DNA of 64,000 nt from the human T2T-CHM13v2.0 reference genome, Homo sapiens (GCF_009914755.1 NC_060937.1), one strand, 5' to 3'. Shown: positions 1 to 3,227, counted from the stretch's first letter. Translations and numbers: made by a program. Notes: generated by a model not told the origin, from the sequence alone.

Positions 1-850
1 GAGGACACAGAGCTCAGGGACAGCTTGGGGACTAGAGGTGCAGATGTGATCATCCCACCAGAAAGCACATGGGGTGGGAAATAGACCAAGGACTATCTAG
101 ATGGTGGACATGAAAATACTTGGTCCAAACACATACTTGAAAGCCCTTAACTAGACCAGGGGTAGTTGAGAACAATACCAATATTGTTACAGTTTCAACT
201 GTAGACTAAAATATTTTCACTGTCTATCTAATGTCTATCTAAATTCTAACAGCTCTATCTTAGGTACTATGTGAGGAATAATGGGCTGTTACTAGTTACT
301 AGAAGAGAATGTCATTGCTGTGTCTATTTGTGCAATTAAAGTTCAAAACACAGTGTTCTTTTTTACAGTAAAATAATCTGCATGCATGAATGCAGGCCTT
401 GCCTCTGGCCCAGCTGTGTCACTAAGGATAGAAACGCTGGGTATGTGATGATGGCTAAAGTAGCACAGTTGACAATCTATCATCTAGATATAGGTTATTA
501 CTTAAGTAGACTGAATCTGATTATAAATCAGGTTTCATGCATTCCCTATGTGCCAGGTTTCTTGATACAGAGAACATTTGTAGGGAAAACATTTAATTAA
601 GACATGGCTTTCCATAAAATGTGCTAGCCTATCACGCCATTTCTTCCTTTTTAATATTTGAGGGGTTGCCTCTCTCAGCTTTGGCGCCCTCCTCCTCTGT
701 ACAGGGTAGCTTCTTCCTTCTCTTTTCCTTCTTGCTTATTGAACTCTCTGCTCCTTAAAACCACTCCACGTGTGTCCGTGTCCTTGTATCTAAGCTGGCA
801 TGAGGACCAAAAACCCTGGTGCTCCACCACTCATCGGAGCCACATCATTT

Positions 851-868
851 TGGTGCGTTGGCCGAGAA
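851..868 (+). other. Retroviral primer-binding site, tRNA-Gly(TCC) type
   Basis: TGGTGCGTTGGCCGAGAA matches 17/18 the complement of the tRNA-Gly(TCC) 3' end (TGGTGCGTTGGCCGGGAA); it follows the LTR-terminal CA at 846-847 after a 3-nt gap. Confidence 0.85.
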
Positions 869-1268
869 AGGAAATTCATTCATCAGACTGAGTCAAGGAA
901 ACTTATTTTAAACTATTTATGGCCTTTAATAATTGAGTAAGGTGTACTCCTATGAACAAAATTTGAAGCATGTTTATTTCTCTGCCTGGTTCCTCTAGAA
1001 TTTGGAAATTATCTGTCTGGAAGCTCTGAGTTTATCTTGGGACCTCAAGAGGAGAGGATCACCCAACTCACAGCAATCAAACTCCAAATGGTGCTATAAA
1101 CTGAACCACACATGGACACGTCAGTCTTCCGAGGACCCTTAGATCAACCCCAGGAGGAGCCCTAGCTGCTGTTCCCCATTCGACGCCCCTTTCCAGCAGG
1201 AAGTAGCCAGAAGACATCGTCGCCCAAACCTCTAACAGCAGTTAGTGCGGCATCTCCACAGGGGGGAA

Positions 1269-1815
1269 TGTTGTAGGAGTTATTGATAAATTATTTTAGG
1301 CAGATAGAGAGGAAAAGGGGTCCTTAGGAAGTTTTTGTTTTTTAAAGCACGTCTGGAAAAGTTTCTTGTAAAGCTCCAGCTCTTAAAGCCAGGCCAGTTA
1401 CCCGATATCCAAATGCCAGCCATTAGAAAGTGGGTCCACCCAAACATGGCGATTCCTGTGGACTTCTTGCCCTTTCCCCACATTCCTGGATACATGGACA
1501 CCCCGAAGTATCCCCACCTGTGTAGAAGATCATGGTGCCCTGCATTTGCATATTAAAAGGCTAGGGTGGGAGAGCCAGCTTTTCCTGCGGGCTACGTGAA
1601 TGACATGCCTAGTCAAACCAATCCCCTGAGCCTGTGCAAATCAGACACTGCCTCCTCCAGCCTCTGTATATATACCTAGCTGGTATCTGTGGCAGGTGGG
1701 GTTCCCTCTCTTGGCTTTGGAGCCCCCCTTCCTCTGTCTCTGTACAGGGGAGCTTCTTCCTTCTCCCTTCCCTCTTGCTTCTTCTTGCCTATTAAACTCT
1801 CTCTGCTCCTTAAAA
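1269..1815 (+). promoter_or_regulatory. ERV1 LTR U3-R with core promoter motifs
   Basis: Starts TG after the purine tract; octamer ATTTGCAT 1544-1551, CCAAT 1618-1622, TATATATA 1667-1674, poly(A) signal ATTAAA 1791-1796. Confidence 0.75.
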
Positions 1816-3227
1816 ATAAAAAAAACTATATTTGAAACATTTCTATAATTACATGACTGGTCGTTTATAACTAAATGACTGGAATTCTCAGAAGAGAAAG
1901 CCATTTATTCAGAGCCAAGCTATTCAGGTAAGTATGGCTATCCTGTTCTTTGAAGTGGTTCACTTCAACTCAACAAACTGCCAATATAAATATGACCTTG
2001 CTCTCTCCTTCCCAGCAGACAGGCCCAACTAACACACGTCCTTCTCCAATTTCCCACCTTAAAACAATTCCTGTATCTCACAGAATGGCAACTGTGGCCA
2101 CAAGAGAAAAATATATACACTTGTGGGCTTTTCTAAAGAAATATAGTTAGAGCTAACTGGTTTGGTGATTTTGTATGTATGTGATTGCTGAAGATGAAGG
2201 TTCAAAAAGGAGGAAATCAGGACCTGAGCCTGGAAGGATAATGAAGAATAGTTACTGGGGAAGAATCCTGGGCACACTGTTATGCTAGCCCTGCTCTAAT
2301 TAGATTTAAATGTTCTGCGAGTGTTAACATGAACTAAACCCTACACAGAAAATTTAAAAAAAAACAAAAAAAAACAATGTTTCAGGTAGTTCCACAAGTA
2401 AGAAAAACTGGATTTGGATTTTGTATATGGCCATAGTAAAAAAATTCCAAGAAAGCTTTGGTTTCTTTTTTAAAGCTGACAAAGATGTCCCCTTTGCCTT
2501 CAAGTCTTAATTTTAGAAGGGTGACGATTAAAATTGTATTTTCCAAGCACCCCTGGGAACCAGCTTGGAGCTGTTAACTCCAACCAAGGTGGATGGAGTT
2601 AACAAACACATTTCACTCTGGAAATCACCTAAATTAGAGGGAGAATGAATGGATCTTGCCAAAAGGACTCAAACAGGCAATAACTTTACAATTAAAAAGA
2701 GAAAAGTGTCAATAGCAATATAAGAAAGACAAAATTGCATCAGGACACATATTGCAAATATGAGCTCACAAAAGGAAGCAGGTAGTAGATCTTCACCTAT
2801 TTGTCCTACTGAGAGGGACAGAGAATATATAAAGAGTAGTTAAAGAGTGAGAATTTAATGTATTTTTCTCCTCATTTTACCTGAGAGACAAATGGGCTAA
2901 GAAAAGACGGTACAAGCCAGAACATTTTTGTTCTGACGGCTCTGCTCAAATTAGCGTGTTTCATAACCTTGAAGTACTAGGGTAATTATTCTGGCCTGAC
3001 TAATTTAAATTATAATATCAACAAGATTCCAAGACTGAGTCTTAAAACGGCAGGGTTTCCAAACTGCGGCTTTCCAGTCCTCTTCTTCCGAGTGACTGCA
3101 GACATACAGCTGGAGAGAAAGTGAGGAGAAAAATACCATGCAGGAGGACTTGACCTGCAGACAGCTGGCCTAGACGGGGCTCATCAGAGAGAACACCAGC
3201 CACTCCACTCCCAGAACCACGGTGGCT

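What the first reader, a model, noticed from the sequence alone, without database searches (positions are those of the whole stretch)
654..1835. Processed pseudogene of an endogenous retrovirus RNA, apparently mobilised in trans by LINE-1
Seen: the 5' LTR copy begins at GGGGTT (662), the same sequence that lies 31 nt downstream of the TATA box in the 3' LTR (TATA 1667, GGGGTT 1698), i.e. at the expected cap site. The 3' LTR stops ~15-19 nt after ATTAAA (1791) and runs into an A tract where the 5' copy continues into U5 (ccactccacg...). The unit is flanked by ATATTTGA direct repeats after a TTTTT|AA site. Established: R-U5...U3-R-poly(A) with a longer TSD is the structure of an RNA copied by L1 target-primed reverse transcription, well known for HERV-W; integrase-made proviruses keep complete LTRs. 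Inference: this is such a retrocopy from a MER4-group (MER83-like, tRNA-Gly-primed) family, which repeat masking would probably report only as LTR and internal fragments.
Basis: partly seen in the sequence, partly recalled or inferred. Interest (0 to 1): 0.8.

Follow-up and report, generated by a model that had tools for sequence, protein, structure and literature searches.

The report
L1-copied spliced endogenous retrovirus RNA
This stretch is a DNA copy of a spliced, polyadenylated RNA of an ancient endogenous retrovirus, pasted into the genome by the LINE-1 machinery, and it belongs to a retrovirus family other than HERV-W, the one family usually credited with such copies.

Summary
Window 662-1825 has the order R-U5-PBS ... 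PPT-U3-R-A tail. It starts at the cap site 31 nt after the TATA box and ends 16-19 nt after ATTAAA. It is flanked by an exact 8-nt duplication, ATATTTGA, with a chance expectation of about 5e-4.

Unspliced relatives elsewhere in the genome carry three GT..AG introns (about 4.5 kb, 250 nt and 1050 nt) exactly where the window copy has junctions at 890/891, 1014/1015 and 1073/1074. Among the scored hits, no other copy has the middle junction.

The family is not MER4. It is HUERS-P3b/LTR9B-like, in the HUERSP supergroup that also holds MER83. It uses a tRNA-Gly(GCC) primer site and has no detectable gag or pol.

The window copy is one of many such retrocopies.
- 24 of 26 relatives that keep internal 3' sequence end in R plus poly(A), not U5.
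- 5' ends are either the cap site or variable truncations.
- 14 of 16 copies have 8-17-nt duplications, most at TT|AAAA-like sites.
- Integrase-made copies survive mainly as solo LTRs.

A 2017 review calls HERV-W the sole HERV group mobilised by L1. No paper found links HUERS-P3 to processed pseudogenes.

The parts
654..661 (+). 5' target-site duplication ATATTTGA, preceded by TTTTTA (648-653)
   Evidence: family D20. Chance 4.75e-4.
662..762 (+). 5' R, beginning at the transcription start GGGGTT
   Evidence: Aligns to 1698-1815. The 5'-complete siblings whose ends were read start within a few nt of the same site, with unrelated upstream flanks.
763..847 (+). U5, ending in CA
   Evidence: Complete and solo LTRs elsewhere continue from R into this sequence and end near here.
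851..868 (+). Primer binding site TGGTGCGTTGGCCGAGAA, complementary to the 3' end of tRNA-Gly
   Evidence: The sibling form of the motif is the reverse complement of the 3' end of three tRNA-Gly(GCC) genes. The window copy differs from that 18-mer at 2 positions.
662..890 (+). Exon 1 (R-U5-PBS-leader), ending ...CAGACTG
   Evidence: Unspliced siblings continue with gtgagt at this point. In one search all 38 non-spanning hits match exon 2 only and start at or near the junction.
891..1014 (+). Exon 2 (124 nt)
   Evidence: In siblings it is preceded by ttgttttgtttttcag and followed by gtaagt. About 4.3-4.6 kb separates it from exon 1 in L031-L034.
1015..1073 (+). Exon 3 (59 nt)
   Evidence: In siblings it is preceded by ctttctaacag and followed by gtatt. 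Only the window spans the exon 2-exon 3 junction among 40 scored hits.
1074..1268 (+). Exon 4, internal part: the end of env, a short untranslated stretch and the polypurine tract ACAGGGGGGAA (1258-1268)
   Evidence: The acceptor in siblings reads cctagaag|CAATC. A Pfam TLV_coat C-terminus lies just upstream in unspliced L033.
1269..1697 (+). U3 of the 3' LTR, starting TGTTGTAGGAG, with TATATATA at 1667-1674
   Evidence: Solo LTRs start at the same TG.
1698..1815 (+). 3' R, with poly(A) signal ATTAAA at 1791-1796
1816..1825 (+). Remnant of the poly(A) tail (ATAAAAAAAA)
   Evidence: Siblings carry longer A-rich tails at the same point.
1828..1835 (+). 3' target-site duplication ATATTTGA

Best explanation
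Window 662-1825 is a processed pseudogene of a triply spliced, capped and polyadenylated RNA from a HUERS-P3b/LTR9B-like endogenous retrovirus. That family is a gag/pol-less mosaic element with a tRNA-Gly primer site.

Shown:
- The copy begins at the LTR transcription start and ends at the LTR poly(A) site with an A tail.
- It lacks three GT..AG introns that unspliced relatives keep.
- It is flanked by an 8-nt duplication at a TTTTT|AATA site.
- Dozens of relatives share these ends but have their own duplications and variable 5' truncations.

Inferred:
- A source provirus with complete LTRs was transcribed in the germ line.
- The RNA was spliced exon 1-2-3-4.
- LINE-1 ORF2p nicked the bottom strand at about TATT/AAAAA and primed reverse transcription on the poly(A) tail (target-primed reverse transcription).
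- Second-strand cleavage 8-9 nt away made the duplication.

The copy has no promoter at its 5' end and no + strand ORF longer than 47 aa. It is therefore an inert fossil of an ancient retroviral transcript.
For: End structure.

Splicing:
- In L031-L034, L037 and L038 the window's three junctions coincide with CTG|gtgagt...tttttcag|AGTCAAGG, ATCT|gtaagt...ctaacag|GTCTGG and CACAG|gtatt...cctagaag|CAATC.
- In the genome-wide junction searches, every hit that does not span a junction breaks at or near it.

Family pattern:
- 24 of 26 siblings carrying internal 3' sequence end in R plus a poly(A) or A-rich tail. Two (L019, L024) continue into U5.
- 5'-complete copies start at the same GGGG motif.
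- The others are truncated at scattered positions.
- 14 of 16 copies reach a duplication score of at least 8, against 7.9% of 240 mismatched-flank controls.
- Duplications mostly begin A-rich after a T-rich dinucleotide.

Contrast: solo LTR L028 has TG..CA ends and a 4-bp GTGG duplication.

The criteria match those stated for HERV-W processed pseudogenes (PMC5016936, passages).
Against: - The window's duplication is only 8 nt and is separated from the A tail by CT.
- The A tail is short (10 nt).
- The inferred nick site (TATT/AA) is one base off the TTTT/AA consensus.
- No empty orthologous site could be examined.
- L1 involvement is inferred from these signatures and was not observed.
- The top-40 limit of the genome search may favour the window's own lineage.
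Confidence: 0.9

Rival explanations
1. It is an ordinary integrase-made provirus that later lost U3 of its 5' LTR, U5 of its 3' LTR and three internal blocks through unrelated deletions.
For: Old proviruses are often deleted. The family did integrate in the ordinary way: 30 of 40 hits to a proviral-type query are complete LTRs without the internal part.
Against: - Five deletions would have to end exactly at the cap site, the poly(A) site and three GT..AG intron borders.
- The A tail and the 8-nt duplication would be unexplained. An integrase-made relative has a 4-bp duplication.
Confidence: 0.02
2. A spliced RNA was packaged and reverse-transcribed by a retroviral RT and integrase (complementation in trans), not by L1.
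For: The spliced RNA keeps R, U5, the PBS, the PPT and U3, so it could in principle be copied by a retroviral RT. This rests on general knowledge and no call tests it.
Against: That route rebuilds complete U3-R-U5 LTRs at both ends, with TG..CA termini and a 4-6-bp duplication, and leaves no A tail. None of this is seen at the window.
Confidence: 0.03
3. The locus is a DNA-level (segmental) duplicate of another retrocopy and not an independent insertion.
For: None specific to this locus.
Against: - No other scored copy spans the exon 2-exon 3 junction (1 of 40).
- The best sibling is 88% identical and covers only exon 4 onward.
- The duplication abuts the element's ends.
Confidence: 0.02

Closest known systems
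HERV-W (HERV17/LTR17) processed pseudogenes made by LINE-1 (Pavlicek 2002, as summarised in Grandi 2016, PMC5016936)
   Same: R-U5 at the 5' end, U3-R plus poly(A) at the 3' end, a TT/AAAA-type target, a 5-15-bp duplication, and frequent 5' truncation among siblings.
   Different: - The retrovirus family differs. The primer site is tRNA-Gly. The LTR is about 633 nt, split U3 429, R about 100-118 and U5 about 85.
- The parent element has no detectable gag or pol.
- The window copy derives from a triply spliced RNA. In PMC5016936 the word 'spliced' occurs 0 times.
HUERS-P3b / LTR9B elements (Repbase/Dfam names, described in PMC3597737 as replication-defective mosaics flanked by LTR9B)
   Same: - The PBS string occurs in RetroTector chains classed HUERSP3.
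- The internal region is colinear with a chrY copy taken to be the chain annotated LTR9B + HUERS-P3b.
- No gag or pol is detectable.
   Different: The published description is of LTR-flanked proviruses and solo LTRs. The window copy and most internal-bearing siblings are poly(A)-ended retrocopies without complete LTRs.
Processed pseudogenes of cellular mRNAs
   Same: Intron loss, a poly(A) tail, target-site duplications and an L1 endonuclease target.
   Different: The template is a retroviral transcript, so the copy carries a U3 promoter near its 3' end.

Membership tests
L1-made ERV processed pseudogene (criteria as quoted in PMC5016936) | 5' LTR reduced to R-U5, starting at the transcription start | tested here: met
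   Siblings share the start.
L1-made ERV processed pseudogene (criteria as quoted in PMC5016936) | 3' LTR reduced to U3-R, ending at the poly(A) site | tested here: met
L1-made ERV processed pseudogene (criteria as quoted in PMC5016936) | Poly(A) tail | tested here: met
   A 10-nt A-rich remnant at 1816-1825. Siblings carry longer tails.
L1-made ERV processed pseudogene (criteria as quoted in PMC5016936) | Target-site duplication of variable length (5-15 bp) | tested here: met
   An exact 8-nt duplication with chance 4.75e-4. 14 of 16 family copies score at least 8, against 7.9% of controls.
L1-made ERV processed pseudogene (criteria as quoted in PMC5016936) | TT/AAAA insertion motif | tested here: inconclusive
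   The window reads TTTTT|AATA, a near match. Siblings read TT|AAGA, TT|AAAA and AT|AAAA among others. No formal enrichment test was run.
L1-made ERV processed pseudogene (criteria as quoted in PMC5016936) | Absent from the orthologous site before insertion | not testable with these tools
   No other primate genome is held.
HERV-W group | LTR17/HERV17 sequence and its LTR layout (R from nt 256 to 326 of a 780-nt LTR) | tested here: not met
   - The layout here is U3 429, R about 100-118 and U5 about 85.
- The primer site is tRNA-Gly.
- The PBS string is found in HUERSP3 chains.
- No direct alignment to LTR17 was possible.
HUERS-P3b / LTR9B | Sequence homology to annotated members | tested here: met
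   - L047, taken to be the chr12 HUERSP3 chain, aligns over R-U5-PBS.
- L048, taken to be the chrY LTR9B + HUERS-P3b chain, is colinear with L033 over the 2.5 kb fetched at 71-81% identity.
- The link between these T2T places and the hg19 chains rests on the exact PBS match, chromosome and strand. No liftover was done.
HUERS-P3b / LTR9B | Replication-defective mosaic with an internal LTR8A | tested here: inconclusive
   No Pfam gag or pol hit in the three forward frames of L033 or in all six frames of L031. LTR8A could not be tested because no reference sequence is held.
   Dfam is not held. Repbase tables place MER83 and HUERS-P3/P3b in one supergroup, HUERSP (PMC5753468, passages).

The most novel reading that the evidence does not exclude
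HUERS-P3b is a gag/pol-less mosaic retrovirus. It would be a second human ERV family, besides HERV-W, whose RNAs were repeatedly retrotransposed by LINE-1. Its retrocopies would preserve a fossil set of at least five RNA forms: unspliced, intron 1 removed, exon 1-4, exon 1-2-3-4, and intron 3 removed. One of these uses a NAGNAG tandem acceptor. This contradicts the statement that HERV-W is the sole L1-mobilised HERV group, and it suggests that most surviving internal HUERS-P3b sequence in the genome is L1-made.
Probability: 0.6. Interest if true: 0.65.

Novelty: new member of a known kind. Interest (0 to 1): 0.6.

Why it matters
- L1-made ERV pseudogenes would not be a HERV-W peculiarity.
- Counts of 'proviruses' for this family would need to separate retrocopies, which have no promoter and were never infectious integrations.
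- LTR-divergence dating does not apply to such copies.
- The retrocopies record which splice sites an extinct retrovirus-like element used tens of millions of years ago.
- For this locus the practical point is small. It is an inert insertion in a MIPEP intron whose sequence supplies the acceptor of a predicted lncRNA exon.

Tried and rejected
- Pavlicek 2002 (PMC155283, doi 10.1101/gr.216902) is not held. Whether it mentions other families is therefore unknown to me.
- I tried to name siblings by hg19 coordinates in Vargiu Table S1 using number prefixes. This gave only irrelevant rows.
- A fuzzy-regex search for 5' ends timed out and was replaced by BLAST.
- The bacterial promoter/terminator scan does not apply to a human Pol II element and is not used.
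- ORFs of at least 55 aa from L033 gave only the env C-terminus.
- Read-through with X gave no gag or pol hit: three forward frames of L033 plus three frames of its env region, and six frames of L031.
- I first read '24 of 26' as showing that L1 was the main amplifier. I rejected that after a proviral-type query returned 30 complete LTRs without internal sequence among 40 hits. Integrase-made copies are common but survive as solo LTRs.
- No coding potential is left in the window copy. The longest + strand ATG ORFs are 46 and 47 aa.

Full report
**Observation**

- GGGGTT lies at 662 and again at 1698, 31 nt after TATATATA (1667-1674).
- The two R copies align over 99 columns with 9 mismatches and 4 indels.
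- After CTCCTTAAAA the 5' copy goes on into U5 (761 onward). The 3' copy (ending at 1815) runs into ATAAAAAAAA.
- ATATTTGA lies at 654-661 and 1828-1835.
- In 200,000 random placements in this window, such an 8-mer pair arose 95 times.
- BLAST of the element against its own locus with 1.5-kb flanks found only the self match and the R-R match. No U3 lies upstream and no U5 lies downstream.

**LTR borders**

A search of the window's own genome returned complete LTRs that run from query 616 through R into U5, up to query 194-197. Read together with the TG start and CA end, this sets U3 at window 1269-1697 and the end of U5 at 847. Solo LTR L028 starts TGATGTAGGAG, ends ...ATCA and has a 4-bp GTGG duplication. 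That is the integrase signature and it contrasts with the window.

**Splicing**

- Eleven relatives extended upstream carry extra DNA between blocks that are contiguous in the window. The extra blocks are about 4.3-4.6 kb between query 237 and 238 (seen in the four copies that reach the 5' end), about 250 nt at query 361/362 and about 1050 nt at query 420/421.
- In six of these copies I read the borders. They are CTG|gtgagt...tttttcag|AGTCAAGG, ATCT|gtaagt...ctaacag|GTCTGG and CACAG|gtatt...cctagaag|CAATC.
- The window therefore reads exon 1 (662-890), exon 2 (891-1014), exon 3 (1015-1073) and exon 4 (1074 to the R end).

81-nt queries centred on each junction gave the following.

| Junction | Hits spanning it, of 40 scored | First-look candidates | Spanning copies |
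|---|---|---|---|
| 1 (exon 1-2) | 2 | 145 | window and C1:152.74M |
| 2 (exon 2-3) | 1 | 151 | window only |
| 3 (exon 3-4) | 4 | 287 | window, C1:225.68M, C5:39.90M, C1:244.70M |

Every other hit breaks at or near the junction.

Other RNA forms are also fossilised.
- L003, L018 and L023 join exon 1 directly to exon 4. They use the AG three bases upstream (cctag|AAGCAATC), which makes this a NAGNAG tandem acceptor.
- L042 lacks intron 1 and 138 nt of intron 2.
- L043 and L004 lack intron 3.

**A family of retrocopies**

- Of the 29 sibling loci, 26 carry internal 3' sequence plus the LTR. Of these, 24 end in R followed by poly(A) or an A-rich microsatellite, and 2 (L019, L024) continue into U5. 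The other 3 (L027-L029) are complete LTRs.
- The 5'-complete copies whose ends I read (window, L003, L018, L023, L031-L034 and L042) start within a few bases of the same GGGG motif, with unrelated upstream DNA.
- Other copies are truncated at scattered positions of the reference copy: 4659, 4970, 5109, 5732, 5794, 5856, 6022 and 6115.
- An automated flank comparison gave a duplication score of at least 8 in 14 of 16 copies, against 7.9% of 240 mismatched flank pairs.
  - Two of the 14 (L023, L004) lie in A-rich DNA and are uninformative.
  - L003 and L018 score low.
- Examples are AAGAAACTGTATGGG/AAGAAACTCTATGGG, AAATGTGCCCAC, AAAAACAGGAACT and AGGTTGGCAGCTG.
- Most duplications start A-rich after TT, AT or CT. 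This fits the L1 endonuclease target as I recall it, and the TT/AAAA motif quoted in PMC5016936 (passages).

**A correction to my own first reading**

A query made from a proviral-type 3' end (200 nt of internal sequence plus a complete LTR) returned 40 hits.
- 2 are internal sequence plus a complete LTR, counting the query itself.
- 8 stop at the R end.
- 30 are complete LTRs without internal sequence.

Ordinary integration was therefore common and survives mostly as solo LTRs. What is L1-made is most of the surviving internal sequence, not most insertions.

**Which family**

- The primer site is TGGTGCGTTGGCCGAGAA. Siblings read TGGTGCATTGG...
- The 15-mer TGCATTGGCCGGGAA has 19 exact genome matches and 0 for the reversed control. 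At 3 of 3 places examined, it is the reverse complement of the 3' end of a tRNA-Gly(GCC) gene.
- In Table S1 of Vargiu 2016 (PMC4724089, supplement searched), the full PBS string occurs in 2 chains, both classed HUERSP3 and annotated with LTR9B plus HUERS-P3 and/or HUERS-P3b. RetroTector labels the string 'P'.
- Shorter forms of the string occur in rows that are mostly HUERSP3.
- A chr12 place with the exact motif aligns to the window's R-U5-PBS-leader and shows the gtgagt donor.
- A chrY place is colinear with full-length sibling L033 across the 2.5 kb fetched, at 71-81% identity. I take it to be the chain annotated LTR9B + HUERS-P3b.
- PMC3597737 (passages) describes HUERS-P3b as a replication-defective mosaic flanked by LTR9B.
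- In line with that, the 4.3-4.6-kb block between the leader and exon 2 gives no Pfam hit in three frames of L033 or in six frames of L031, read through with X at stops.
- Only the C-terminus of a gamma-type env (TLV_coat, positions 478-559 of 560, E = 6e-10) lies just before exon 4.
- Repbase tables put HUERS-P3/P3b and MER83 in one supergroup (PMC5753468, passages).
- Dfam is not held, so the exact subfamily is unnamed.

**Age**

- The R-R divergence is 9 of 99 (K2P 0.098).
- With a recalled neutral rate of about 2.2e-9 per site per year, and identical R copies at insertion, this gives roughly 20 Myr, with a wide error.
- Identity to siblings is 78-88%.
- PMC3597737 reports a HUERS-P3b/LTR9B insertion shared by New World and Old World primates.
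- I place the copy at tens of millions of years and cannot resolve it further.

**Mechanism and rivals**

The best account is L1 target-primed reverse transcription of a spliced retroviral mRNA (confidence 0.9).
- Chance deletions of a provirus would need five breakpoints exactly at RNA-processing sites.
- Retroviral reverse transcription of a packaged spliced RNA would rebuild complete LTRs.
- A DNA-level duplicate would need a second locus with the same junctions, and none was scored.

**Literature**

[quoted passage not shown] - Full-text searches on processed pseudogenes in HERVs, with and without HUERS-P3, HUERSP3, HUERS-P3b or LTR9, listed no paper that describes such copies for this family. 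One search, for HUERS-P3b alone, found 4 papers.
- The only listed paper holding both kinds of terms, PMC5753468, uses them in unrelated passages.
- Subscription papers, Repbase and Dfam notes, and Pavlicek 2002 could not be read.

**Verdict**

- It is a new member of a known kind.
- Interest is moderate to good (0.6).

Noticed in passing
window 990-1000: The last exon of the predicted lncRNA LOC124906997 starts at 999 according to the hub annotation. That is just after ...ttcctctag inside retrocopy exon 2, so the retrocopy supplies the acceptor. The exon then reads through the retroviral ATTAAA at 1791 without ending there.
   Followed up: partly
window 1069-1078; L003, L018, L023 junctions; L034 near 8835: The intron 3 acceptor is a NAGNAG pair (cctAG|AAG|CAATC). 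The window used the downstream AG. The three exon 1-exon 4 retrocopies used the upstream AG.
   Followed up: yes
window 851-868; Vargiu 2016 Table S1: RetroTector labels this primer site 'P' (proline, as in the name HuERS-P), yet it is complementary to the 3' end of tRNA-Gly(GCC). The family name seems to rest on a mislabelled primer site.
   Followed up: partly
L033 3031-7304; L031 2773-7367: The 4.3-4.6-kb block removed as intron 1 has no Pfam-detectable gag, pro or pol: three forward frames were read in L033 and six frames in L031. The translations of L031 show at least two later Alu-like insertions.
   Followed up: partly
L042 494 and L043 428 (L033 7434-7572): Two retrocopies lack the same 138 nt directly after the exon 2 donor. 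This suggests an alternative acceptor inside intron 2, or a subfamily indel.
   Followed up: no
L032 3' end; L014 3' end: In some siblings the poly(A) tail has turned into a long (CA)n microsatellite.
   Followed up: no
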